Source of the DNA: Sphyrna mokarran
Lineage: Eukaryota
Direction: 5' to 3'
Length of the DNA: 64,000 bases
NCBI GenBank assembly: GCA_024679065.1
Contig: JAGIQG010000001.1
Span: 101,246,001 to 101,310,000, forward strand
Part shown: positions 2,321 to 61,744 of the stretch, piece by piece
Layout: each line of letters opens with the position of its first letter
How positions within the stretch are numbered: position 1 is the first letter of the stretch
The notes under the pieces: model-generated
The model's database searches: none
Told to the model about the DNA's origin: nothing
Seen by the model: the letters and a program-made list of their open reading frames with translations, nothing else
Program-made: the position numbers and the translations under genes

Positions 2321-2702
2321 GTTCTGAAATATTTTGTTAAGGCAGGGAGCTTGTAATTGTTGGTGTAACCCGTGTAAATTACATTGATCAGTCATAAGTA
2401 TCAATTACAAACAGTACTGGCTGCAAAGCTAAACTCTGGGGGAGGATCCCATACACACCATCCTCCAACCTTTGCAATCCAACATAATTCTTCTAACAAG
2501 TACCTCATGTTTTTAGCACTTGACCAGTTTCTTGCCAATTCCAAGATTGCACCAAGTCCCCACAGCTTTGAGCCTAATTCATAAAATTTTGTGTTTTGCC
2601 TTGTCAGTTGATCTTTGGAAGTCTTGTTACCCAATGTTCTATGATTTTCCCATAGTTCACTAGGGTTGCCACTTGCTCACAGAAGTAAAGTAGTTAGAAC
2701 AT

Positions 2703-2948
2703 GTGGTGACTGTAGTTAGTACTGTTACCTTACAGTGTCAGGGTCTCGGGACACTGTCTGTGTGGAGCTTGCACATTCTCCCCATGTCTCCTTCAGTTTC
2801 CTCCCACAGTCTAAGGAAGTGCAGGTTGGGTTGCTTAGTGTCAGAGTAAATACATGAGGTTACAGAACTAGGACCTGGGAGGAACTGTTGTCAGTGCAGA
2901 TGTGATGGGCCAAAGGTCTCTTTCTGCACTGTAGGGATTCTATGATTT
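2703..2948 (+). mobile_element. HE1-like V-SINE with CR1/HER1-type tail, decayed
   Basis: Degenerate tRNA head, V-domain tgtctgtgtggagcttgcacattctcccc, tail gggccaaagg...ctgcactgtagggattctatgatt. Confidence 0.85.
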
Positions 2949-12588: not shown

Positions 12589-12875
12589 TGGCACAGTGGT
12601 TAGCACTGCTGCCTCACAGTGCCAGGACGCAGGTTCAATCCTGGCTTGGGTTACTGTCTTTGCAGAGTCTGCACGTTCTCCCTGTGTCAGTGTGGCTTTC
12701 GTCTGGGTGCTCCGGTTTCCTCCCACGGCCCAAATGATGTGCAGGTTAGGTGCATTGGCCGTGATAAATTTTTCTGCGGTGTAGCTGAACAGGTACCAGA
12801 GTGTGATTTTCCACAGTAACTTCATTGCAGTGTTAAGGTAAGCCTGCTTATGACACTGATAAATAGACTTAAACT
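12589..12875 (+). mobile_element. V-SINE variant: tRNA head + V-domain + non-CR1 (Rex1-like) tail
   Basis: A-box tggcacagtgg, B-box ggttcaatcc, V-domain gtgctccggtttcctcccac, tail ttccacagtaacttcattgcagtg...tgacactgataaat. Confidence 0.85.
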
Positions 12876-15314
12876 TTTCTCTGGGCCATCGTGTTCAGAG
12901 CCAGCAGACCTGGAGAATCCCTGACCTCACCCGGTAGACTTCAGCAATTGAAGAAATATTTTGTGTTGCACATTTTTGTAGTTATTGAGAGTAAGGACAA
13001 ACTGTGAACACTTTGACTATTGCACTTATATGAGACAAGATCTTAAATCAGGCAGTTGAATTCAAAATTTATGTTGTTGCTAAAGTCCAGAATTTCTTTT
13101 TCCAGAGCCGCATTTAAAATATGCTGCTTCACAAGTTGTGATCCATTTGGTTAGGCAGAAAATTGATGCATGTCCTACAGCAGCTAGTGGCAGTGAATAA
13201 AATCCAGTAGGGACAGGCAGAGGGGTTAAATAGCCAGTAAAAGGAAATGAGAAGATTAGAAGTAGCTGTTTTCTCATTTTAAGAAGGAACTACCTGAAAA
13301 GGAATTTATAGCAGAGAGAAAATGACAGTGTTAGATAGTTGTAAAATGTAAACTAACTTAAATTAAGAAGTTGAATACAATAGGAAGCATTAAAAAGCCA
13401 GTGAGCAATAATGTGTTTCATTACTTTACTGTGTATGATTGCCGTGTGTTTTTCATCTTTAATGGTGCTGCAGCTAGTTCTCACTCCATCAGGTTTTCCA
13501 TTCTGCAACATTGAGTGCTTTCAGCCCTGACTGTGTGATTCACATTGCTCTTTACCCATTGCTCAATAGTGGTTGTGATCTGGTGATTGAAGGTACCAGC
13601 TGCCATTAACTGCTGGATGTGGGAGGGTCCTGATTTCAGCATTGTGGCAGTGTGTGAATAACATTTCATACTTGGGAATCCCAGAAAAATGTAGATTTCA
13701 GTGATACACAATACAAGGAGAAACAGCAGTGGCTTTTCAAAAACAAACCTGGGTTATTCTATGCAATCCAGACTACCTGACATACAAAAACAAGTGTGCC
13801 AGAATTTTTCTGCCAGTCCCTTGCAGGCTTCGTCAGAGATTGAAAAGCATGGATGATACTATGGTGTGAATGAGTGAGGAGATGCGGGATTCTGATCCTA
13901 ATTATGCCAGTTTTAGGAAACACCAGCAAAGGTCAAGTAATTTCCCACAGGGAGGAAAAGGACGTTAGTTTCTTTATTAACTTGGGCATCTCATATCATA
14001 GGCTCAGCAGCTTTGATAAGCTTGGGAACAGTTTTCCAATTCATTGTTTCAAATAGGGGAAGTGAGTGCAACAGCGGAAGAAAATCCTAACTTAGATTGG
14101 GGAAAAAAAAACAAAGCAGAATGAAATGTAATCTATCTCGTGTTATTGTCAATTCCACCTCTTTTGTAATTTCATGTTTGTTTTTAAATCTTCAGGCATT
14201 TGTGATTAGAAACAATACTTTTTTTCTGGTTAATTAAAATCAGTTTTTATTGTCTTTGTGTTTGTATACATGTTTTCTAGTCAATGGTAGTGGGGTCTGC
14301 CTTGGCGCTGGAGCACTGGATTCTAACTCTAGAGAGTAGAAAATATTTTATTGGGCCTTATCAAGGAGGCTGAAGGTTCACATTTCTTTCTGAGGAGAGA
14401 GGACTGCAGTCAGGGTTCCAGTTCCTTCTGTATTCGCACCTTCACTGTTCCCTCTAAAGTGTGCAATTGTGTAGCAACCCAAATGTTCTGACACAAGCTG
14501 TGCATATGTTAGCCCTTTAAATAATCTTGTTTGCACGGCATGAAAAGACATTTTAGATTCTGTACATCAAAATAACTTGACTGTCCACCACAAAATGAAT
14601 TGCATGTGCCACACTAGATCTGCCTCCAGTAACGCACATGGCTATCAAGATATGTAAATTAGACAACTTTCTAAGATATCGTGAATCATTGGCAGGGTCA
14701 GCACCTGAGGTTACTGTGGGCCAAATTTTAGCATTTACACTGAGACCTCCAGCCAGTGGGTTTGTGGACTCCCATCTTTGTTGTCGTGGCTTCAACCACT
14801 TGATTGACTGTTGTGGGAGCGGGATACAAATTGTTAGAGATTATACACAAAGGAACAGATGTGATTTTGCTGTCAGCAACATTGCTTAAATATGTTACTT
14901 GAACCAGACTTAGAATGATGGCTTTAGTCTACAGGGGGCTTTCCATGTGTTAACAGTATCTGTGACCTGCTGCTCTTTTGCCAGGCTTAAGTCAAAATTG
15001 AAGACAGATACTTGCAGCATTGAGTGTCATTTTCCCTATACCATCTTTAAAAAACACACTTCAAGCTCTCATGATAAGGCCAAGTTTCTCCTTAAATGCA
15101 AAACCTAAATAGCATTGTTTTTGTTGAATCAGTGTTGTACATGAATAAACCATTCAACTTTTCCAGTCGGCTGCAGCATTCAATAAAATTAGGATTGAAC
15201 TTCCTTCACAATTCCACTTTCCTGCCCCTTGTCAAATTCCTTGATTCCAAACTGATTAACCACGTAAATGAAAAGCAGGTCAAGTGGGAAATTTGAGGCA
15301 ACTAACTCGGCTTC

Positions 15315-15589: not shown

Positions 15590-17135
15590 GGTGAACATAT
15601 CGTTTGCCAACTGTTTGTTTGTTATAACTGCATACTAGCTTTCTGTTCCTTGTACCAAGCATATTTAAGTTAGTGTCTCTGAACATCAAAATTTGAAGTT
15701 TCATGTCCTTTTAAACTATTCAGTTTTTATGTTCTTACTGCAAACTGAATAATTTCACATTTCTTCTCATTATATTCCATCTGATACCTCATTGCCCATT
15801 CATTTAATCGCTTTGCAACCTGCTTGTGTGTGTCTCTCAGTCTACATTCCCAACTAACTTTGTATCATCAACAAACTTAGATACGTTACTGTCCATCTCT
15901 TGTCATTAATATAGGTTTAAGAAGCTGAGGCTTCTGTACTAATCATTGTTCACTCCACTCTTAACATCCTGCCAACCTGAAAGTGGCCCATTTCTCCCTA
16001 CCCTTTGCTTTCTGTGCATTAACCAGTCCCCTATTTATGCTAATCTATGAACACAACTCCATGAGTCCTCGCATATTAACTTTGGTTTGTAGCATGTTAT
16101 TGAATGTCTTTTGAAAATCCAAGTTGATACATCTATTGGTCCCCATTTATCTGCATCCCCAAAAAGCTCCAATGAATTTGTCAAAAGGATTCTTCTTTTA
16201 TAAAGTGATGCTGACCTTGTCTGATTGTACTGTGACTGTTTAAAAAATTGTTTATGGAAATTTCCTACGTAATAGGTTCCAGTATTTTCTGATGACTGGT
16301 GTCACAATACCTGGTCAGTACTTGCCTATTTTTTCTGCCTTCTCCAGCAGTGATACCAGAGTTGACTATACCAATCTGCTTGAACAACTATTGAGGCAAT
16401 GGAATTTCAAAAAATGATAACTAATGCATCCACCAATTCTGTACCTATCTTTTTCAAGTCCCTAGAATATAGGCCATCTGATCCATGGGATTTGTTGGCT
16501 TTTTGATCTTGAAATTTTTCCCATTTTTTTATATATTAATTACTTTAAGTTGCTCAGTCCTATCAGTCCTTTGGTTATCCTCTATTTTTAGAATGAATTT
16601 GTGTTTTCCTCCTACTGTGAAGATAGGCAGAAAATATTTGTTCAACGTTTCTACTATTTCTTCATTCTCTATGGTGAGTTCTTCGACCTCTTCCTCAAAG
16701 GGACCTTATTTTAGGCTGCTCTGCTTTTTATATGTTGGGGTGACATGGTGGCACAGTGATTAGCACTGCTGCCTCACAGCGCCAGGGATCTGGGTTCAAT
16801 TCCAGCCTGAGGTCACTGTCTGTGTGGAGTTTATACATTCTCCCTGTGTCTGCATAGGTTTCCTCTCGGTGCTCTGGTTTCCACCCATTGTCCAAAGATT
16901 TGTGAGTAAGGTTGATTGGCCGTGCTAAATTGACGTTAGTGGGGTAATGTGAGGTTATGGGAAGTAGGGCCTGAGTGGAATTGTGGTCGCTGCAGACTCA
17001 ATGGAATGAACGGCCTCCTTCAACACATCAGGATTCTATGTATATAAATGTATAAGCCCTTAGAATCTGCTTTCATGTTCCTGGCTAGTTTATTCTCATG
17101 CTCTTTTTTTTCCCTTTTCTGTTAATTTTTTGGTC
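15590..17135 (-). mobile_element. Old CR1 RT fragment, interrupted by the SINE at 16738-17040
   Basis: Reverse CR1 motifs (tttgtatcatcaacaaact = KFVDDTK, ttttgaaaatcc = DFQK, aggccatctgatcc = GSDGL). Confidence 0.7.
16738..17040 (+). mobile_element. HE1-like V-SINE, near full length
   Basis: ggtggcacagtgattagcactgctgcctcacagcgccaggga, B-box gggttcaattcc, V-domain, CR1-type tail ending ggattctatg. Confidence 0.92.
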
Positions 17136-17539: not shown

Positions 17540-18015
17540 ATTTGTTTATTTGTGTCACAAGTAGGCTTGCATTAACACTGCAATGAAGTTGCTGTGAAAA
17601 TCCCCTAGTTGTCACAGTCCGACATCTATTTGAGTACACTCTGGGAGAATTTAGCATTGCCAGTGCATCTAACCAGCATTTCTTTTGGACAGTGGACATA
17701 CAAGGTGGCAAGGGCCTGGAATGCACTGCCAAGTGAGGTGGTTGAGGCAGACATGTTAGCAACATTTAAGACTTGTCTGGATAGACACATGAACAAGTGG
17801 GAAATAGAGGGATACATGTGGTTGGTGTAGATAGGAAAATGCGATTAGCGCAGACTTGGTGAGCTGAAGGACCTGTTCCTGTGCAGTACTGTTCCTTGCT
17901 CTTTGCTGAAAACAGAGCACCCAGAGAAAACCCATGTGGATGCTGGTAGAACATGCAGACTCTGCACAGATAGTGACCCAAGTCAGGAATCGAACTTGGG
18001 TCCCTGGCACGCTGC
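17540..18015 (-). mobile_element. V-SINE variant (Rex1-like tail) split by a CR1 fragment
   Basis: Same tail as 12589-12875; SINE reads through if 17696-17907 is removed. Confidence 0.8.
17696..17907 (+). mobile_element. CR1 3' fragment nested in a V-SINE
   Basis: KVARAWNALPSEVVEADMLATFKTCLDRHM plus gagctgaaggacctgttcctgtgc tail. Confidence 0.85.
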
Positions 18016-23135: not shown

Positions 23136-24027
23136 TGAACATGAACCATGTGTTATCTTGAAAGTTATTTATCTTTTATATATTGTCATCTTTTCCCCAA
23201 CCAAGAACTGACTCAGCTGCCTAATTATAAGGAATGCAGAAAGTCAGCACACAACCATCAACATATTGTATAAGGAGAAATGAAACAACACACTTAAGAC
23301 CTTAGAGAAGAAATGGAATTTGGAAATGGTTCGATATTAGGACGGGAAAAAGGTTGTTTTTTTTTGAAGATGGGTGATCTTGGTGGTATGTGGAATGGTT
23401 GTTTAGGAGAGGGAAACCACTGACCAAGTTAATTAACATGGGGATGGGGAAAAGGAATTAAGTGGACAGGAATTGAAATGTTATGTAAAAACAAGTTTCT
23501 TTCTTGTTTTTATATTGTTCTGCGTAATCTCAGTTGATTGAGGTATGTTTATGTTAATAAACCCAAGGTGTGTGAGGGATATTATTAAATATACAAAAAT
23601 TTGGCATGATCAGCAATGACTTTGAGAAAAAGATACGAGTCATGAAGCTCATTTCAGGGTCAAACAGCTCAAAGACGATTAGATGGAACGGCGGCATGGA
23701 TACTGAAGTCATCCATTGAAACTGCTAATTGTAAACCTGAGAGTAACACCATGTGGGAGAGGTGCTGAAGAAGGATGAAATAGTTGACTTGTTGAAGGCT
23801 GGAAGGACTTTAAAGATGATAACAAAGAGCCAAGTGCTATGATTGTAATCACAAGCACCAGTGTTACTGTCTGACTAGGACAGTTGAGTGCTGTAGTCAT
23901 ACCTAACTGAAGAGATTTGAACTAGTTAGGTGAAGCTCTGATTGGCAATAACTGGTTTGTGGAGATTTGAGAAAAGGAGTGGTCATTGGCTCAAGAATAT
24001 AAGAACTGGATTTTTAAGGGGCAAATG

Positions 24028-24600
24028 AGATAAAATGTGTAGTGGTCCATTTTGGCAGGAATACTGGGATGAAGGAGTAAATATAAGGGGTAGGAAACTT
24101 AGCTGTGTTGTAGAGCAGAAGGATCTCGGGGTCCGGGTCCATAGGACTCTTAAATCGGCCTTGCAGGTGGAGGAAGTGGTCAAGAAGGCGTACGGTGTAC
24201 TGGCCTTCATTAATCGAGGAATAGAGTTTAGGAGTCAGGAGGTAATGATGTAGCTCTATAAGACTCTTGTCAGACCCCAGTTGGAGTATTGTGCGCAGTT
24301 CTGGTCGCCTCATTATAGGAAGGATGTAGAGGCCATTGAGAGAGTTCAGAGGAGATTTACAAGGATGCTGCCTGGATTGGGAGGCAGGCCTTATGAAGAT
24401 AGGTTGAGGGAGCTGGGACTCTTCTCACTGGAGCAACGTAGGTTGAGAGGCGACCTGATAGAGGTTTATAAAATGTTGAGAGGGATAGATAGGGTGGAGT
24501 CTCAGAGACTATTTTCCCCGAGCTGAAATGGTCACTACGAGAGGACACAGATTTAAGGTGCAGGGAAGCAAATACAAAGGAGATGTCAGAGGTAGGTTTT
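24028..24600 (+). mobile_element. CR1 LINE, left part of host element interrupted at GRF|FTQRVV
   Basis: EQKDLGVRVHRTLK...[15 protein letters not shown]...TRGHRFKVQGSKYKGDVRGRF. Confidence 0.95.
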
Positions 24601-26896
24601 TTTTTTTAGCATTAAGCAACACAGCACGGGAAACAGGCCCTTCGGCCCAACGAGCCCGCGCCACCGTAATACCAAATCATTATCCTATTTTAATATTCCT
24701 ATATAATAATATATATATTAATCCTAATTTGGAAAATTTTCACCATAGGGACAATTTGTTACCCAATCAGCCTAAGAGCGAATTTTTGGGTTGTGGGAGG
24801 AAACCGGAGTGCCCGGAGAAAACCCACGCAACCACGGGGAGAACGCGCAAACTCCCGCAGACACCGGCCCAATTCCAAGTGTCTGCACAGCCACATCGAT
24901 AGTCTCTGAGCTGTCATGGTGCCCTTCAGGTGGTCCACATAAAGCACTCATATACGACATGAGGTACCAGGCAACCCATGAATCAACATCCAAGAGCTGT
25001 ACCCGCACCACCTGCCGAATGCGTGCTCAAATTATGGACCGAATTACCTGTGGAAAAAAGCCGTAGTTAAACAGTCCTAATATATCCCTCTATCTGCATA
25101 CCGCTCATGTGGCTGTCCAAGAGACCCTTAAACAGCCCCAGCGTGCCTGCTCCCACCACCTTACTCGGCAGTGCATTCCACACCCCCACTACCCTTTGTG
25201 TGAAAAACTGCCCTCTAATATTCGTCCTATACATAGCCCCCCTCACCCTATGGCCATGACCTCTCGTCCTATCCATTTCTAAAGGTGGAAAAAGTTTACC
25301 TCCATTTACTCTATCTATACCCCTTATAATCTTATACACCTCTATGAGATCCCCTCTAAGCCGACGTCTTTCAAGGGAAAACAACCCCAGTCTATCTAAT
25401 CGTTCCTCATAAGACAGTCCTTCCATACCAGGCAGCATCCTGGTAAACCTCCTCTGCACTCTCTCCAAGGACTCCACATCCTTCCGATAGTACGGAGACC
25501 AGAACTGGGCGCAGTATTCCAAGTGAGGCCTAACCAACGTTGTATACAACTGCAACATCAAACTCCTACTCTTATATTCTATACCCTTTTCTATGAAAGC
25601 TAACATACTATACGCCTTCTTTGTCACCTTCTCCACCTGTGAGGACACCTTCAGAGACTTGTGAACCTGCACCCCCAAGTCTCTCTGCGTCTCTATGCTC
25701 TTTATAGTTTTACCTTTTATCCTATAATTCTCTTCTACATTTTTCCGGCCAAAATGCATCACCTCGCATTTTTCCGGATTAAATTCCATTTGCCATCTAT
25801 CTGCCCAATCTACCAACCTGTCTATGTCCTGTTGTATTGCCTGACACTGCTCTTCTGTACCCGCCAATCCAAGCATCTTGGTGTCATCAGCAAATTTGCT
25901 GATCTCACCACCTACCCCTACTTCCAAGTCGTTTATGTAGACCACAAATAGAAGAGGACCTAGTACTGAGCCTTGTGGCACTCCACTAGTGACAGGCTTC
26001 CAGCCGGAAAAAGAGCCTTCCACTACTACCCTCTGTCTCCTCCTTCCGAGCCAGTTTTCGACCCATCTACATACCCGACCCTGTATCCCATGCGCCTTCA
26101 CCTTCTCTATCAGTCTACCATGAGGAACCTTGTCAAACGCCTTACTGAAATCCATGTAGACGACATCAACAGCCTGTCCTTCATCAACTGTTTTTGTCAC
26201 TTCTTCAAAAAATTCCACCAGATTCGTAAGACAAGACTTCCCCTTGACGAAGCCATGCTGCGTATCCCTGATCAGATCGCAGCGCTCCAGATGCTCATAC
26301 ATCCTGTCCCTAAGGATCCTCTCCATTAGCTTACCTATAACTGAAGTCAAGCTCACCGGCCTATAGTTCCCTGGGTGATCCCTCTGACCTTTTTTAAACA
26401 ACGGTACTACGTTTGCTATCCTCCAGTCCTCTGGGACCTCACCTGTGTCCAAGGAAGAGACAAAGATTTGCGTCAGAGGCCCAGCCAAGTCTTCCCTCAA
26501 CTCCCTTAGCAGCCTGGGGTAAATGCCATCAGGCCCCGGAGCTTTATATGTCTTTAAGCTGCCTAACAGCCCCAACACCTCTTTCCTCGTAATCCTTATT
26601 TCCCTCAACCGATCCTCAACTTTGTCAACATCAGGCACAGACATCTGTCCAGTCTCCTGCGTGAATACCGACGCAAAGTATTCATTCAGGATCTCCCCCA
26701 TTCCCTCAGGCTCTAAGCATAGATCCCCTCCACTGTCCCTAAGAGGTCCAATCTTGCCTCTAACCATCCTTTTGCTCCTTACATAGGTGTAAAATGCCTT
26801 TGGATTTTCTTTAATCCTACCTGCCAGAGCCACCTCATGGCCCCTTTTTCCCTTTCTAATACCCCTTTTTAGATCCCGTCTACACTCTCTATAAGC
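24601..26896 (-). mobile_element. Young 5'-truncated CR1 LINE with open RT frame and ~460-nt V-domain-containing 3' UTR, nested antisense in another CR1
   Basis: Open frame to stop at 25067; UTR 25066-24608; gggccgaagggcc tail hairpin, then an A-run opposite the T-run at 24597-24607. Confidence 0.95.
25067..26896 (-). CDS. CR1 ORF2 reverse transcriptase, 5'-truncated (no endonuclease domain, no true start)
   Basis: KAPGPDG, NYRPVSLTS, QHGF, DFSKAFD, GVPQGSVLGP, KFADD, no stops. Confidence 0.9.
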   Translation of the reverse strand, partial: AYRECRRDLKRGIRKGKRGHEVALAGRIKENPKAFYTYVRSKRMVRGKIGPLRDSGGDLCLEPEGMGEILNEYFASVFTQETGQMSVPDVDKVEDRLREIRITRKEVLGLLGSLKTYKAPGPDGIYPRLLRELREDLAGPLTQIFVSSLDTGEVPEDWRIANVVPLFKKGQRDHPGNYRPVSLTSVIGKLMERILRDRMYEHLERCDLIRDTQHGFVKGKSCLTNLVEFFEEVTKTVDEGQAVDVVYMDFSKAFDKVPHGRLIEKVKAHGIQGRVCRWVENWLGRRRQRVVVEGSFSGWKPVTSGVPQGSVLGPLLFVVYINDLEVGVGGEISKFADDTKMLGLAGTEEQCQAIQQDIDRLVDWADRWQMEFNPEKCEVMHFGRKNVEENYRIKGKTIKSIETQRDLGVQVHKSLKVSSQVEKVTKKAYSMLAFIEKGIEYKSRSLMLQLYTTLVRPHLEYCAQFWSPYYRKDVESLERVQRRFTRMLPGMEGLSYEERLDRLGLFSLERRRLRGDLIEVYKIIRGIDRVNGGKLFPPLEMDRTRGHGHRVRGAMYRTNIRGQFFTQRVVGVWNALPSKVVGAGTLGLFKGLLDSHMSGMQIEGYIRTV

Positions 26897-27096
26897 TTCA
26901 CTCAGAGGGTGGTGAGTGAATGGAACCGACTGCCGTCGGAGGTTGTTGAGCAAACTCACTGAGGTCTTTTAAGAGACTTCTGGATGAGTATATGGAAAAG
27001 AATAGGATAGGGGGTTATAGATAGGTCTGTGGATTGGTAGATGTGATCGGTGCAACTTGTGGGCCGAAGGGCCTGTTTGTGCTTTTGTGTTCTATG
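26897..27096 (+). mobile_element. CR1 LINE, right part of the interrupted host
   Basis: Resumes ttc act cag agg gtg gtg (FTQRVV) and ends gggccgaagggcctgtttgtg...ttctatg. Confidence 0.93.
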
Positions 27097-30697: not shown

Positions 30698-32641
30698 CAT
30701 AGAACATAGAACATAGAACATTACAGCACAGAACAGGCCCTTCGGCCTTCGATGTTGCGCCGACCAATATAAAAAGCAATGCCCCTCCAAACTAAACCAT
30801 TCCCTTCTCTTCCATATACTTATCAACTAACCTCTTAAACGCCACCAAACTTGGCGCATCTACAACTGCTGCAGGCAGGGCATTCCACTCCCGAACCACC
30901 CTTTGGGTAAAGAACCTGCCTCTGATATCCGTCCTATAACTATCACCCCTTAATTTAAAGCTGTGTCCCCTCGTGCTAGCTTTTTCCATCCTAGGAAAAA
31001 GGCTATCACTGTCCACCCTATCTAAACCTCTAATCATCTTATATGTTTCGATCAGGTCCCCTCTTAGCCTCCTCCTTTCTAACGAAAACAACCTCAAATC
31101 CCTCAGCCTCTCCTCATAAGACCTGCCCTCCATACCAGGCAACATCCTGGTAAACCTCCTCTGTACCCTCTCCAATGCCTCCACATCTTTCTTATAATGC
31201 GGGGACCAGAACTGCACACAATACTCCAAGTGCGGCCGCACTAGAGTTTTGTACAGTTGCAACATGACGTTGCGGCTCCGAAATTCAATCCCCCTACCAA
31301 TAAAAGCCAAGACTTCATATGCCTTCTTAACAACCTTCTCGACCTGACTGCCTACTTTCAGGGATCTATGCACATACACACCAAGATCCCTCTGTTCATC
31401 TAGACTACTAAGAATCCTACCATTTGCCCTATACTCTACACATTTATTATTTCTGCCATAGTGCATTACCTCACACTTTTCCACATTAAACTCCATTTGC
31501 CACCTCTCGGCCCAGCTCTGCAACTTGTCCAAGTCCCTCTGCAAACTATAACACCCCTCTTCACTATCTACCACTCCACCGACTTTAGTGTCATCTGCAA
31601 ATTTACTAATCCATCCTTCAATACCCTCATCCAGATCATTTATAAAAATTACAAACAGCAGGGGCCCCAAAACAGACCCCTGAGGTACACCACTTGTCAC
31701 CGAACTCCAAGATGAATATCTCCCATCAACCACCACCCTCTGTCTTCTATCTGCTAGCCAATTCCTAACCCAATTAGCTAAATCACCCTCTATCCCATAC
31801 ATCTGCATTTTCTGCAGAAGTCTTCCATGGGCCACCTTATCAAACGCCTTACTAAAGTCCATATATACCACATCAACCGCCCTACCCCCATCCACCTCTT
31901 TAGTCACTTTTTCAAAAAACTCAATGAGGTTAGTAAGGCACGACCTACCCTTCACAAAACCATGCTGACTATCCCCAATCAATTCATTTCTCTCTAAATA
32001 ACTATAAATCCTATCCCTAATAATTCTCTCCAATACTTTGCCCACAACAGAAGTAAGACTCACTGGCCTATAATTCCCTGGAAGGTCTCTCTTCCCCTTC
32101 TTGAACAATGGGACCACATTCGCTATCCTCCAGTCCTCCGGAACCACACCCGTAACCAACGACGACCTGAAGATCAGAGCCAGAGGCTCTGCAATCTCCT
32201 CTCTTGCCTCCCAGAGAATCCTAGGGTAAATCCCGTCCGGCCCAGGGGACTTATCCAACTTCAAACCCTCGAGAATATCTAGCACATCCTCCCTATCTAC
32301 TTCGATACCTTCCAGTTTGCTACCCTGTACCTCAGTGTTCTCCATAACTACATTTACATCACCCTGCGTGAATATCGAAGAGAAATATTTATTCAGTGCC
32401 TCTCCAATCTCTTCAGGCTCCACGCACAACTTCCCACTGCTGTCTATAACTGGCCCTAATCTTGTCCTAACCAATCTTCTATTCTTAACATATCTAAAGA
32501 AAGCTTTAGGATTCTCCCTAATCCTATCAGCCAAAGTCTTCTCGTGTCCTCTCTTCGCTCTCCTCAATTCACTCTTTAGCTCCCTCCTGGCTAATCTATA
32601 GCTATATCCATCTATATGGATATATATCTATAGCTTTCCTG
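30698..32641 (-). mobile_element. Young 5'-truncated CR1/HER1-type LINE with open RT frame, short 3' UTR, (TTCTATG)n tail
   Basis: 591-aa frame 30792..32567 with all RT motifs; three catagaa units at 30698-30718. Confidence 0.97.
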
Positions 32642-35975: not shown

Positions 35976-35992
35976 CACCAATATCCCACCGA

Positions 35993-36718
35993 TAGCCTAA
36001 TGCTTTCATGTTGTTAGTATACGCTTGATGCACAGTTCCAGTCATGGAGTCCTAATATTTGTGAATAGGAGCATTACCCATTAGCTTATGTTAAAATATT
36101 GAATTCATGTTTGTAAAGTTCGGAGGTCCACTTACTGTACCCAGCGAAAACTCCAGCCTTGAGGGAGTAAACTCTAGAATGAAACTTGCTTTGTTTGGCT
36201 TTGGTTGAACTTTGGTAAAGAGCCGAATCAGGACTTGTGGATGACATTGATGTATTTGTTTTATCCTACAGGTACTTGGGTCCACCTTGTTGTCTAACAA
36301 GGGGCATACATGCAATGGGTCATGAGAGGACTGCTCTTGGATTTTTCGAGAGTAGCCTAATGCTTTCACGTTGTTAGTATACGCTTGACCTGGACCATTT
36401 GATGGGCAACACGACAGCTCAGTGACTATCGCTGTGCTGTGCAGATACATGGATTTGGGCCTGTGTCTGTGGGAGTTTGCCCATTCTGCCCGTGCTTGCG
36501 TGGGTTTTCTCTGGGTGCTCCAGTTTCCTCCTACATCCCAAAGATGTACTCTTAGGCTGATTGGCAGAACAAATTTTCCCTAAATTGTCTCAAATTTGGT
36601 TCCAATGCATAGATCTATAAACATAGACAAGGATCATGGGTAAAAGTGGGAACATTTGAGGTGGCGGTGTTGGGCCGAAGGGCCTGTTTCCTGTGCTGTT
36701 TTGTTCTTTGTTCTTTGT
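35993..36718 (+). mobile_element. Non-coding copy of the V-domain 3'-UTR retroelement family
   Basis: 36248-36716 closely matches 41878-42360; ends (TTGTTCT)n; 36030-36245 has no counterpart in the window. Confidence 0.85.
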
Positions 36719-41179: not shown

Positions 41180-41560
41180 GCATGAAGAACAGTCTGAGAA
41201 ATCACAACTAACTATAAAAAAGGGTGTAATGTGTGCATTCACTACTGAAACAGGGAAGAGTGACACAGAGATAGAGTGGGGCAATTTAGAAGAGGATGCC
41301 TACCATTATGCAACAGCTAGTGTCACTGCCGACTGGGGACTCCCACCTTCCTTCCTGGTAGTGGAACATACGGCACCATCTAATCCAGCCCCCATCTCAG
41401 AAAACTTAGTCTCAACTCCTCGTGCTATTCTCATCCCGATAAGTCCAGTCACTAATCCGGTCCCTAAACCAATGAATCCGGTCACTACCTAACGACAGGA
41501 CGGACAGAACCAGAATGTAACTTATGTAACTCCATACACCATGACACAGCTCACTGAATT
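41180..41560 (+). mobile_element. Possible endogenous retrovirus gag fragment
   Basis: One frame with one stop: ...EIEWGNLEEDAYHYA, Pro-rich linker, PMNPVTT*RQDGQNQNVTYVTPYTMTQLTEL (resembles a capsid N-terminus); CpGs retained. Recognition from memory only. Confidence 0.45.
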
Positions 41561-42360
41561 ATGAGGGGTATGGATAGAGTAAACAGAGTTCAGCTTTTTC
41601 CTAGGATGGACTCAAATAGCATCAGGTGTCAGAGGCTTAGAGTGAGGGGAGTAAAGTATAATTTGGATGCTAGTGGGAGTTTTTTCACACAGAGGGTGGT
41701 CAGGGTGTGGAACACGCTGCCAAGTAAAGTGGTGGAGGCAGGCACTCTGGAGTTATTTAAGAAATACTTAGATGGGCACATGAACAGAATTGGAATGGAG
41801 GGATATAGAAAACTGATTTAAAATAGGGATCGTGAGCCTTGGGAGTTCCCTGGGAAGTGTGTAAATAGTCGATAATATCGATGTATTTGTTTTTATCCTA
41901 CAGGTACTTTGATCCGCCTTGTTGTCTAACAAGGGGCATACATGCAATGGGTCGTGAGAGGGCTGCTCTTGGATTTTTTTTTTCAAGAGTATCCTAGTGC
42001 TTCACGTCGTTAGTGTACACTTGACCTGGACCATTTGATGGGCAACACGACAACTCAGTGACTATCGCTGTGCTGTGCAGATACATGGATTTGGACCTGT
42101 CTCTGTGGGAGTCTGCGCATTCTCCCCGTGCTTGCGTGGGTTTTCTCCGGGTGCTCAGGTTTCCTCCCACATCCCAAAGATGTGCTCTTCAGCTGATTGG
42201 CAGAACAAATCTCCCTAAATTGTCTCAAATTTGGTTTCAATGCATAACTCTATAAACATAGATAGGGATCATGGGGTAGAAGTGGGAACATCGAGGTGGC
42301 GGCGTGGGCTCGTTGGGCCAAAGGGCCTGTTTCCCGTGCTGTTTTGTTCTTTGTTCTTTG
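41557..42360 (+). mobile_element. CR1 3' end with ~540-nt V-domain-containing 3' UTR
   Basis: MRGMDRV...FFTQRVVRVWNTLPSKVVEAG...stop 41821; acceptor 41902-03; V-domain ~42100-42220; (TTGTTCT)n tail. Confidence 0.92.
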
Positions 42361-42494
42361 TAACTCAGTATTGTATTTCATTGCAACTTCTAATTGCCAG
42401 TGGGAACCAAATTCAAATTGGTTTGTGACTTATGTGTACCTGTGTCATGAAAAAACTGACTTTTGCGAGCCTAAGTTAGAGCAGATTTCTGAAA

Positions 42495-54246: not shown

Positions 54247-54359
54247 GAACAAAGAACAAAACAGCACGGGAAACAGGTCCTTCAGCCCAACGAGCCCACG
54301 CCGCCACCCCAATGTTCCCACCTCTACCTGTGATCCCTGTCTATGTTTATAGATCTATG
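54247..54359 (-). mobile_element. Terminal ~110 nt of the V-domain-UTR CR1 family
   Basis: Reverse complement matches ~36608-36716 and ~42243-42357. Confidence 0.85.
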
Positions 54360-59828: not shown

Positions 59829-61168
59829 TAGAACATAGAACATTACAGCGCAGAACAGGCCCTTCGGCCTTCGATGTTGCGCCGACCAATTAGGAAAAAG
59901 CAATGACCCTCTAACCTAAACCATTCCCTTTTCGTTCATAAACTTATCTACTAACCTCTTAAACGCCACCAAACTTGGCGCATCTACAACTGACGCAGGC
60001 AGGGCATTCCATACCCTTACCACCCTCTGGGTAAAGAACCTACCTCTGACATCTGTCCTATAACCACCACCCCTTAATTTAAAGCTATGTCCCCTCGTGC
60101 TAGCTTTCTCCATCCTAGGAAAAAGGCTATCATTGTCCACCCTATCTAAACCTCTAATCATCTTATATGCTTCAATAAGGTCTCCTCTTAGCCGCCTTCT
60201 TTCTAACGAAAACAACCTCAAATCCCTCAGCCTCTCTTCATAAGACCTGCCCTCCATACCAGGCAACATCCTGGTAAACCTCCTCTGTACCCTCTCCAAT
60301 GCCTCCACATCTTTCTTATAATGTGGGGACCAGAACTGCACACAATACTCCAAGTGCGGCTGCACTAGAGTTTTGTACAGTTGCAACATGACGTTGCGGC
60401 TCCGAAATTCAATCCCCCTATCAATAAAAGCTAAGACTCCGTATGCCTTCTTAACAACCTTATCGACTTGATTGCCAACTTTCAGGGATCTATGCACATA
60501 TACACCAAGATCCCTCTGTTCATCAACACTATTAAGAGTCCTACCATTAGCCCTATACTCTACACATTTGTTATTCCTGCCAAAGTGAATTACTTCACAC
60601 TTTTCCACATTAAACTCCATTTGCCACCTCTCGGCCCAGCTCTGCAACTTGTCCAAGTCTCTCTGCAAACTATAACACCCCTCTTCACTATCTATCACTC
60701 CTCCGACTTTGGTGTCATCCGCAAATTTACTAATCCATCCCTCAATACCCTCATCCAGATCATTTATAAAAATTACAAACAGCAGGGGCCCCAAAACAGA
60801 TCCCTGAGGTACTCCACTAGTAACCGAACTCCATGATGAATATCTTCCATCAACCATTACCCTCTGTCTTCTATCAGCTAGCCAATTCCTAATCCAATTA
60901 GCTAAATCACCCTCAATCCCATACATCTGCATTTTCTGCAGAAGCCTTCCATGGGCCACCCTATCGAACGCCTTACTAAAGTCCATATGTACCACATCAA
61001 CTGCCTTACCCCCATCCACCTCTTTGGTCACTTTTTCAAAAACCTCAATAAGTTTAGTAAGGTGTGACCTACCCTTCACAAAACCATGCTGACTATCGCC
61101 AATCAATTCATTTCTCTCTAAATAACTATAAATCCTATCCTTAATAATTCTCTCCAATACTTTGCCCA
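59829..61168 (-). mobile_element. Young 5'-truncated CR1 (same subfamily as 30698-32641) with open RT frame
   Basis: Frame 59916..61211 from GKVLERII onward is nearly identical to the 591-aa ORF; (TTCTATG) tail. Confidence 0.97.
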
Positions 61169-61744
61169 AAATACCAGGGTACATCTGGTACAATGGTACA
61201 TCTAATACCATTTTTTACCAAAATGGTATTAGATGTACCATTTAATTTTAAATACTCCCAGTATCTTGTGTCTTTATTCTCTATTGAACTTGTAAGTAAA
61301 TCATGAGCCTTCATGTAGTAATGTAATATCAGAGTGTCCTCGCCCTTTGAAAAAGACAGTGAAGTATAGTGACCGTCCCACATAATGTCAAGTGAGGAAA
61401 ATACTTCAATTTGGGGTTCGTTGTTAAATCTGTGTACACTAACCCCTGTTCAGTATGTTCCAATTTTGTAGGTCATTAAGTATGCTTGTTTCAAAAGGTT
61501 TTGGGAAAAGCCAATTGCTTTTCTTGTACTATATTCAATTACCTCCTCCACCTCAACCAGAAATGATCACTTGTACAATCAAAAATATTTTTTCTCCCAA
61601 AGTACCATCAGTGTTTGTTGATACTCAGTGAGTAGCATCAAAGTGGCTGCAGTTACATCAAACATTGTGCATGGCAAAGCACGGGACAGGTGATGGAGAA
61701 GCAGCATGCATTTGCAAGATAACACCATGTCTGCTGTGACATTG

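What the first reader, a model, noticed from the sequence alone, without database searches (positions are those of the whole stretch)
24608..25066. CR1 LINE lineage carrying the V-SINE central domain inside a long 3' UTR, with no tRNA head
Seen: after the RT stop at 25067 this young element has a ~460-nt UTR, whereas sibling CR1s at 30698 and 59829 have under 100 nt. At ~24745-24865 the UTR contains gtgtctgcgggagtttgcgcgttctccccgtg...ctccggtttcctcccac...aggctgattgg...aaattgtccct, the same block as in the V-SINEs at 12589, 16738 and 52911, but with no A/B boxes in front. The same layout follows a clearly divergent RT C-terminus at 41557-42360 and recurs at 36248-36716, so it is a propagating lineage feature and not a one-off SINE insertion. 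Known: HE1 V-SINEs share only their 3' tail with HER1/CR1 LINEs, and the origin and function of the V-domain are unresolved as far as I know. Inference: either an autonomous LINE captured and kept a V-SINE body, or LINE UTRs of this kind are a source of the V-domain.
Basis: partly seen in the sequence, partly recalled or inferred. Interest (0 to 1): 0.8.

Follow-up and report, generated by a model that had tools for sequence, protein, structure and literature searches.

The report
LINE that swallowed its SINE parasite
In this shark- or ray-like genome, one lineage of self-copying jumping genes has taken up a disabled copy of the small parasite element that normally exploits it and seems to have kept its folded RNA part, offering a way to test what that long-puzzling conserved part does.

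Summary
The architecture is real: a CR1 ORF2 (open for 603 codons, stop at 25067) is followed by a 459-nt 3' UTR holding a V-SINE central block. Related copies lie at 36237-36718, 41558-42361 (with its own RT end) and 54247-54359. 'No tRNA head' is wrong: a remodelled head sits in register before the V block, with a mutated A box and an 18-nt deletion over the B box shared by all three long copies. A model built from that remnant alone finds one V-SINE head as its only non-self match under E 0.1 (1 of 5 heads). The terminal stem-loop is of the LINE type. So a LINE captured a whole V-SINE once; the UTR is not the source of the V-domain. Between the two sublineages head plus V is 82% identical against 64% (spacer), 45% (linker) and 70% (RT end), with some pair-preserving changes, which suggests selection on an RNA fold; a later module swap is not excluded. 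Nine literature searches found no LINE with a V-domain; Repbase/Dfam and the 3' ends of published consensuses could not be checked. Evidence comes from one window.

The parts
25067..26878 (-). Copy A: 5'-truncated CR1 ORF2 (linker, RT, C-terminus), 603 codons without stop or frameshift; stop TAA 25069-25067
   Evidence: (RVT_1 E 1.6e-34)
24925..25066 (-). Copy A: spacer between stop and SINE-derived part; homologous to the spacer of B and C; holds a pyrimidine tract + CAG|GTA motif at 25050
24868..24924 (-). Copy A: remodelled tRNA-derived V-SINE head; A-box position 24913-24903 mutated; 18-nt deletion over the B box between 24868 and 24867
24748..24867 (-). Copy A: V-domain, with a predicted hairpin with internal loop at 24827-24793
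24668..24747 (-). Copy A: A+T-rich linker, poorly conserved; no recognisable SINE tail
24608..24667 (-). Copy A: CR1-type terminal stem-loop (GGGCC-GAAG-GGCCU) followed by 6-8 extra A
24024..27096 (+). Older, frameshifted short-UTR CR1 into which copy A is inserted in opposite orientation (arms 24024-24607 and 26879-27096)
36237..36718 (+). Copy B: truncated within the spacer; head remnant 36404-36459, V 36460-36583, tail with (GTTCTTT) repeats
41558..42361 (+). Copy C: 87-codon RT C-terminus (stop 41819-41821), longer spacer, head remnant 42040-42095, V 42096-42217, tail; candidate 8-nt target-site duplication at 41525-41532 and at the 3' end
54247..54359 (-). Copy D: last 113 nt of the B/C subfamily (linker and tail only)
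16738..17040 (+). Reference V-SINE S2 with A box (1 mismatch) and B box; others at 12589 (+), 52911 (+), 42750-42500 (-), about 2700-2945 (+), and a split copy at 18010-17645 (-)

Best explanation
A V-SINE entered the 3' UTR of an active CR1 once, in sense orientation, upstream of the LINE's own terminal stem-loop (by ordinary insertion or by template switching; the route is not determined). SHOWN from sequence: whole head plus V-domain taken up, A box mutated, B box deleted, SINE tail not recognisable, LINE-type tail kept, one origin for the module, copies made with staggered 5' truncation. INFERRED: loss of the Pol III boxes stops the insert from launching short transcripts that would compete for the LINE's ORF2 protein; the remaining sequence folds in the LINE RNA into a four-way junction (5' leader paired with the start of V, D-arm-derived hairpin, a stem lengthened where the T arm was lost, a small V hairpin) followed by the conserved V hairpin, about 125 nt before the stem-loop that ORF2p is expected to bind; this fold has been kept by selection because it helps the RNA in cis (stability or loading into the ribonucleoprotein), probably the job it does for SINEs. 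My odds: capture 0.93, single origin of the module 0.88, selection on it inside the LINE 0.6.
For: Head in register and B-box gap. Head-only covariance model from A/B/C: the V-SINE head 16738-16790 is the only non-self match under E 0.1 in 64 kb, both strands (E 0.0034, rough); a sequence-only profile ranks it 1-2 of about 2,370 peaks, two other heads 45-106, spacer controls none better than 341. 35 of 148 SINE-conserved columns carry the same derived state in A, B and C. Tail scores +33 to +42 log2 for LINE over SINE type in 4 of 4 copies; leave-one-out put 8 of 8 LINE and 4 of 4 SINE tails on the right side. A vs B identity: head 48/57, V 102/125, tail 42/52, spacer 84/132, linker 34/75; Fisher p 2e-4 and 7e-9; A vs C head+V 148/181 against RT end 176/253, p 0.005. 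On a fold predicted from A alone, differences to B and C break 4 and 5 pairs against 9.7 and 11.6 expected (11 and 4 of 5000 randomisations). 8 of 44 named pairs show a change on both sides across 3 LINE and 3 SINE copies (10 of 500 shuffles). Candidate 8-nt duplication around C. A and C fall with 4 database proteins in one branch, 95/90, among 88 rows.
Against: An unanchored nhmmer search with a SINE-head profile misses all three remnants at E up to 10; anchored local scores are weak for A (29-97 of 300 shuffles as good), better for B (2-5) and C (8-10); a first pairwise test gave 634, 21 and 120 of 1000; the head-only model finds 1 of 5 heads. The pair-breaking test is null when the fold is taken from B or C (2617 and 2091 of 5000); C folds no better than shuffles (z 0.22; A z -2.35); the structure counted was derived from the LINE copies. 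Only two independent sublineages. Neutral yardsticks are loose: third positions 45/85, four-fold sites 14/20. RT monophyly of A and C is not shown: 43/66 support, AU p 0.32, and in a second tree two short-UTR fragments could not be shut out of their group. No copy from another genome with its UTR was obtained. No functional data.
Confidence: 0.58

Rival explanations
1. Same single capture, but the insert is a neutral passenger; its high identity between A and B/C comes from a later swap or gene conversion of the module between CR1 subfamilies (the V-domain as recombination hot spot).
For: RT grouping of A and C is not firm; V-domains have been proposed as exchange points (PMC5804259, passage); structure tests are mixed.
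Against: Identity alternates low-high-low-high along the UTR (spacer 64%, head+V 82%, linker 45%, tail 81%), so one swap does not explain it; the spacer is shared by descent too; differences avoid breaking pairs of the A fold.
Confidence: 0.24
2. A separate non-autonomous family (spacer + remodelled head + V + CR1 tail, like copy B) exists, and A and C are independent fusions of it to different CR1 RT ends.
For: B has no RT and begins near where homology among the copies begins; C has about 60 nt more than A between stop and pyrimidine tract.
Against: A and C are alike through the ORF end and stop (listing); C is framed with its RT end by a candidate duplication; B and C are 88.5% identical, as expected for a truncated copy; no Pol III boxes to drive such a family.
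Confidence: 0.08
3. The insert is kept for a DNA-level or splicing role (enhancer, promoter, or the acceptor-like site in the spacer) rather than as an RNA fold.
For: Pyrimidine tract + CAG|GTA kept in 3 of 3 copies; conserved SINE domains have been exapted as regulators (PMC5786205, Discussion).
Against: 20 such motifs occur in 128 kb, 3 of them these; pair-preserving changes point to RNA.
Confidence: 0.07
4. LINE UTRs of this kind are the source of the V-domain.
For: LINE UTR pieces are known to have become SINE bodies (RTE and Vingi 5' UTRs; PMC5786205, main text).
Against: The UTR carries a damaged tRNA-derived head; 8 other CR1 ends in the window and L001 have short UTRs without V; V-SINEs span cnidarians to vertebrates (PMC4824008, PMC5804259, passages).
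Confidence: 0.02

Closest known systems
Elasmobranch CR1 LINEs (HER1 type) and their partner HE1 V-SINE
   Same: CR1 ORF2 68-70% identical to proteins annotated in Mustelus asterias (P0096) and Stegostoma tigrinum (P0119), about 50% to bird CR1; related terminal stem-loop. HE1/HER1 pairing seen in the table of PMC3747384.
   Different: HE1 and HER1 are listed as SINE-LINE partners; sharing only the tail is recalled (the 1999 and 2002 papers were not read). Here the LINE holds the SINE head remnant and V-domain as well.
MER6 / MER6A (mariner-derived MITE carrying an Ac1-like V-SINE)
   Same: A V-SINE inserted into another element, lost its own transcription and was spread by the carrier (PMC6887750, first fifth of the text and passages).
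   Different: MER6 is a non-autonomous DNA element and lost the head; here the carrier is a protein-coding retrotransposon copied through RNA, the head is remodelled rather than lost, and the insert sits just before the RT-recognition tail.
Ingi-3_AC (Ceph/RTE-like piece in 5' UTR) and RTE-1_DAn (tRNA-like sequence)
   Same: LINEs holding SINE-like or tRNA-like sequence; recombination with a SINE suggested for Ingi-3_AC (PMC5786205).
   Different: Other clades; the Ingi piece is in the 5' UTR and is RTE-derived; neither involves the V-domain or a whole head plus body.
Vhc subdomain of V-SINEs
   Same: Described as a 39-40 bp hairpin with an internal loop kept in many SINEs (PMC4758252, section 11 part 1); a 35-nt hairpin of that form is predicted here.
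   Different: Reported there only in SINEs; the published consensus was not aligned here, so the match is by description and by likeness to the window's own SINEs.

Membership tests
CR1 clade LINE | ORF2 reverse transcriptase related to CR1 | tested here: met
   RVT_1 E 1.6e-34; 65% identity to sibling ORF2; 68-70% to shark and about 50% to bird proteins
CR1 clade LINE | APE endonuclease and esterase-type ORF1 | not testable with these tools
   All copies in the window are truncated 3' of these parts
CR1 clade LINE | 3' stem-loop followed by a microsatellite, no poly(A) | tested here: inconclusive
   Stem-loop in 4 of 4 copies; microsatellite-type end in B, C, D; A ends in 6-8 extra A
CR1 clade LINE | Variable 5' truncation, short or no target-site duplication | tested here: met
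   5' ends at four different points; at most 2 nt duplicated at A, candidate 8 nt at C, none clear at B and D
V-SINE (HE1 type) | tRNA-derived head with intact A and B boxes | tested here: not met
   A-box position mutated and B box deleted in 3 of 3 copies; remnant present; box consensus recalled
V-SINE (HE1 type) | Central V-domain | tested here: met
   Profile from three SINEs of the window, E about 1e-18 to 1e-19; the label 'V' for those SINEs is recalled, not checked against a published consensus
V-SINE (HE1 type) | Short non-coding unit with SINE-type tail | tested here: not met
   A and C are joined to ORF2; tails score as LINE type
Zenon (CR1 group, poly-A tail) | Poly-A tail, no ORF1, separate RT clade (PMC13343379, passages) | tested here: inconclusive
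   Only A has a short A run; its RT is 65% identical to a microsatellite-tailed CR1 of the window, which argues against; no Zenon sequence was compared
HER1 or any catalogued Repbase/Dfam family | Sequence identity to the catalogued consensus over RT and UTR | not testable with these tools
   No such library here; consensus cells in the supplement of PMC13343379 are cut at 400 characters

The most novel reading that the evidence does not exclude
The tRNA-leader-plus-V fold is a portable RNA module that aids retrotransposition whatever polymerase makes the RNA; an autonomous CR1 took it from its own parasite, switched off the Pol III promoter, rebuilt the helices and has kept it by selection across deeply diverged subfamilies. 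That would be a SINE conserved domain working inside a LINE and would explain why the V-domain is conserved.
Probability: 0.4. Interest if true: 0.82.

Novelty: new variant of a known kind. Interest (0 to 1): 0.62.

Why it matters
[quoted passage not shown] A LINE lineage carrying head plus V reverses the usual flow (SINEs borrow from LINEs), gives SINE and LINE about 180 nt of internal homology for tail exchange, and separates the V-domain from Pol III transcription. It makes the domain testable in a cis retrotransposition assay, where no helper element is needed. It also warns that repeat annotation will count such LINE ends as V-SINEs.

Tried and rejected
tRNA scan of the window: 0 genes. 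Rfam at E up to 1: 0 matches. Unanchored head profile: missed the remnants. One scan of bacterial and archaeal genomes for stray CR1 contigs gave 1 locus of 19 candidates, L001, a short-UTR CR1. Search of protein representatives with an antisense reading frame of copy B: 4 weak hits, all on the V part (residues 2-46), none on the lineage-specific part. First protein search was swamped by stork proteins and gives no DNA context; the second found relatives of A at 90% and 81% (P0125, P0126) without UTR. Motif search in the supplement of PMC13343379: 0 occurrences, uninformative because cells are cut at 400 characters. The V-SINE paper of 2002 is not held. In the tree the row for the 17.7-kb CR1 was out of frame and is to be ignored; it was corrected, which dropped database rows under 55% identity (53 kept of 124; one search kept 83 of 124) and whose bootstrap had not settled. 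The likeness of 25 extra bases at the 5' end of C to the head remnant of A ties with one chance match among 4,252 windows: not claimed. Independent SINE insertions rejected (shared deletion and substitutions). Artefact rejected (four dispersed copies, 74-89% identical). Viral and metagenome contig collections stayed unchecked; no eukaryotic genome collection was on hand.

Full report
1. The observation. On the minus strand a reading frame runs 26968-25067. Its first 30 codons belong to an older CR1 on the plus strand, into which the element (copy A) is inserted: the host arms are 24024-24607 and 26879-27096 and join into the usual GRFFTQRV coding stretch. Copy A proper has 603 uninterrupted codons with an RT domain (RVT_1, E 1.6e-34). 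Its UTR is 459 nt; sibling CR1s at 30698 and 59829 have 94 and 87 nt. A profile made only from three SINEs of the window finds their central block in A, in B (36237-36718) and in C (41558-42361) at E 1e-18 to 1e-19 and behind none of 8 short-UTR CR1 ends. A fourth copy D (54247-54359) holds linker and tail only. The name 'V-domain' for the block is recalled; the published consensus was not aligned. Named protein relatives (68-70%) come from sharks, so the window is probably elasmobranch.

2. The head is there, damaged. Alignment puts the 57 nt before the V block in register with the SINE heads, with an 18-nt gap over the B box. The A-box position reads CAGCTCAGAGA, CAGCTCAGTGA and CAACTCAGTGA against TGGCACAGTGG/A in SINEs; B boxes are found in 5 SINE copies and at the homologous place in 0 of 3 LINE copies (box patterns recalled). 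Tests of homology were mixed. Against: pairwise local scores 634, 21, 120 of 1000 shuffles for A, B, C; no nhmmer hit at E up to 10; profile scores 29-97, 2-5, 8-10 of 300. For: a profile of the remnant scanned over both strands ranks the head of SINE S2 first or second of about 2,370 peaks, S3 45-106, S1 79-84, S5 and S6 below 870, while two spacer controls rank no head above 341; a head-only covariance model gives S2 16738-16790, full length, as the only non-self match under E 0.1 (E 0.0034, rough), and misses the other 4 heads; the longer model aligns S1, S2 and S3 from model position 1 and replaces 22 positions by 40 in S2. B and S2 are 37/57 identical in the head and 87/126 in V. Together with its position directly before V, I take homology as very likely.

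3. One capture, then inheritance. Of 148 columns conserved among the SINEs, A, B and C agree with the SINEs in 82 and share a different state in 35 (22 substitutions, 13 gap columns); in 7 they differ in different ways. The spacer upstream is homologous between A and B (87/133, 0 of 500 shuffles), the linker after V barely so (40 and 27 of 500). The tails of A-D score +33 to +42 log2 for the LINE type over the SINE type, with 12 of 12 leave-one-out controls on the right side, two of them narrowly: the LINE kept its own end. C has a candidate 8-nt target duplication that encloses RT end and UTR; A has at most 2 nt; B and D none clear. A and C resemble each other through the stop codon, C then having about 60 nt more. 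RT trees: A+C 43/66 on window DNA; not rejected, AU p 0.32; with 83 of 124 database proteins A and C fall in a 6-row branch, 95/90 (one window row out of frame); with corrected short fragments and 53 of 124 proteins they stay apart from 51 rows (98/94) but the short-UTR fragments at 17.7 and 26.9 kb are not excluded. Kinship of the two RTs is consistent, not proven. Proteins 90% and 81% identical to the end of A exist in public data (P0125, P0126); their UTRs could not be seen.

4. Signs of constraint. A vs B: spacer 84/132, head 48/57, V 102/125, linker 34/75, tail 42/52. Head+V exceeds spacer (p 2e-4), linker (p 7e-9) and, for A vs C, the RT end (148/181 vs 176/253, p 0.005); third codon positions are 45/85, four-fold sites 14/20. 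RNAalifold on A, B, C predicts a closing stem between the leader and the start of V, three hairpins, then a hairpin with an internal loop, the form described for the Vhc subdomain (PMC4758252, section 11 part 1). In the first arm SINE G-C pairs stand against LINE A-U pairs; where the T arm was lost the LINE copies have extra pairs. Over 3 LINE and 3 SINE rows 8 of 44 pairs show a change on both sides (10 of 500 shuffles; structure derived from the LINE rows; slid controls 0-7). With a fold from A alone, differences to B and C break fewer pairs than chance (11 and 4 of 5000); with folds from B or C there is no signal (2617, 2091). A folds better than shuffles (z -2.35), C does not (z 0.22); A looks the youngest (open ORF; UTR CpG observed/expected 0.85 against 0.36 for B). 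This is suggestive, from two sublineages only.

5. How it most likely works. Stringent LINE ORF2 proteins bind the stem-loop of their own 3' tail (PMC4176376, abstract, shown for zebrafish L2). The terminal stem-loop is predicted in A-D as in siblings (z-scores mostly weak). I infer that the captured SINE lost its promoter, which would otherwise release a competing short RNA with a LINE tail, and that its fold was kept because it benefits the LINE RNA in cis. The capture is shown by sequence; the benefit is inference (about 0.6). Rivals: neutral passenger with later module swap (0.24), separate non-autonomous family fused twice (0.08), DNA-level or splicing role (0.07), LINE as source of V (0.02).

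6. What is known. PMC5786205 (main text read, parts 1-4 of 5; supplements not) compared all Repbase SINEs and LINEs and reports only RTE and Vingi 5' UTRs in SINE bodies, a tRNA-like piece in RTE-1_DAn and a Ceph/RTE-like piece in Ingi-3_AC. [quoted passage not shown] PMC6887750 (first fifth and passages) describes a headless V-SINE carried by the MITE MER6, the nearest precedent. PMC4824008, PMC3747384, PMC1513397, PMC11481361 and PMC5499810 were seen as passages and mention no such LINE. PMC13343379 (passages) lists elasmobranch CR1 consensuses whose 3' ends are cut in the supplement as held, so the family may be deposited there without remark. Nine searches found no description; subscription papers, the 1999 and 2002 elasmobranch SINE papers, Repbase and Dfam were not seen.

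7. Verdict. Real feature; CR1 lineage with a captured, promoter-dead V-SINE in its 3' UTR; not a V-SINE by membership and not the source of the V-domain. New variant of a known kind. Interest 0.62; 0.82 if selection on the RNA fold is confirmed (probability about 0.4 for the strong form).

Noticed in passing
window 25050 (-), 36269 (+), 41901 (+): A pyrimidine tract followed by CAG|GTA, like a splice acceptor, is kept in the spacer of all three long copies; 20 such motifs occur in 128 kb. The 5' ends of several shark CR1 consensuses in the supplement of PMC13343379 show donor-like GGTAAG/GGTGAG words (seen by eye).
   Followed up: partly
window 35992-36030 (+): A 39-nt near-copy of B's own spacer lies about 200 nt before B, directly behind another CR1 tail; unexplained.
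   Followed up: partly
window 41533-41557 (+): About 25 extra bases between the candidate target duplication and the RT part of C resemble the head remnant of A; not significant on its own.
   Followed up: yes
window 24597-24608: Copy A ends in 6-8 extra A at a T run of the host, unlike the microsatellite ends of B, C and D.
   Followed up: partly
window 17645-18010: A V-SINE on the minus strand is split by a short-UTR CR1 (17696-17905, +) whose RT end is as close to A and C (67%) as they are to each other: a candidate for the state before capture, and a sign that nesting of the two types is common.
   Followed up: partly
window 12775-12880 (+) and 17645-17530 (-): These two V-SINEs end in a different tail from those at 16738, 52911, 42750 and 2700, so V-SINEs with at least two tail types coexist.
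   Followed up: no
window 30792-32627 (-) and 59916-61214 (-): Two further long open CR1 ORF2 frames, 93% identical, point to recent activity of a short-UTR family beside the long-UTR one.
   Followed up: no
L001 1-547; proteins P0075, P0077, P0114: Fish-like CR1 sequence filed under bacterial names in public records, probably host DNA contamination.
   Followed up: no
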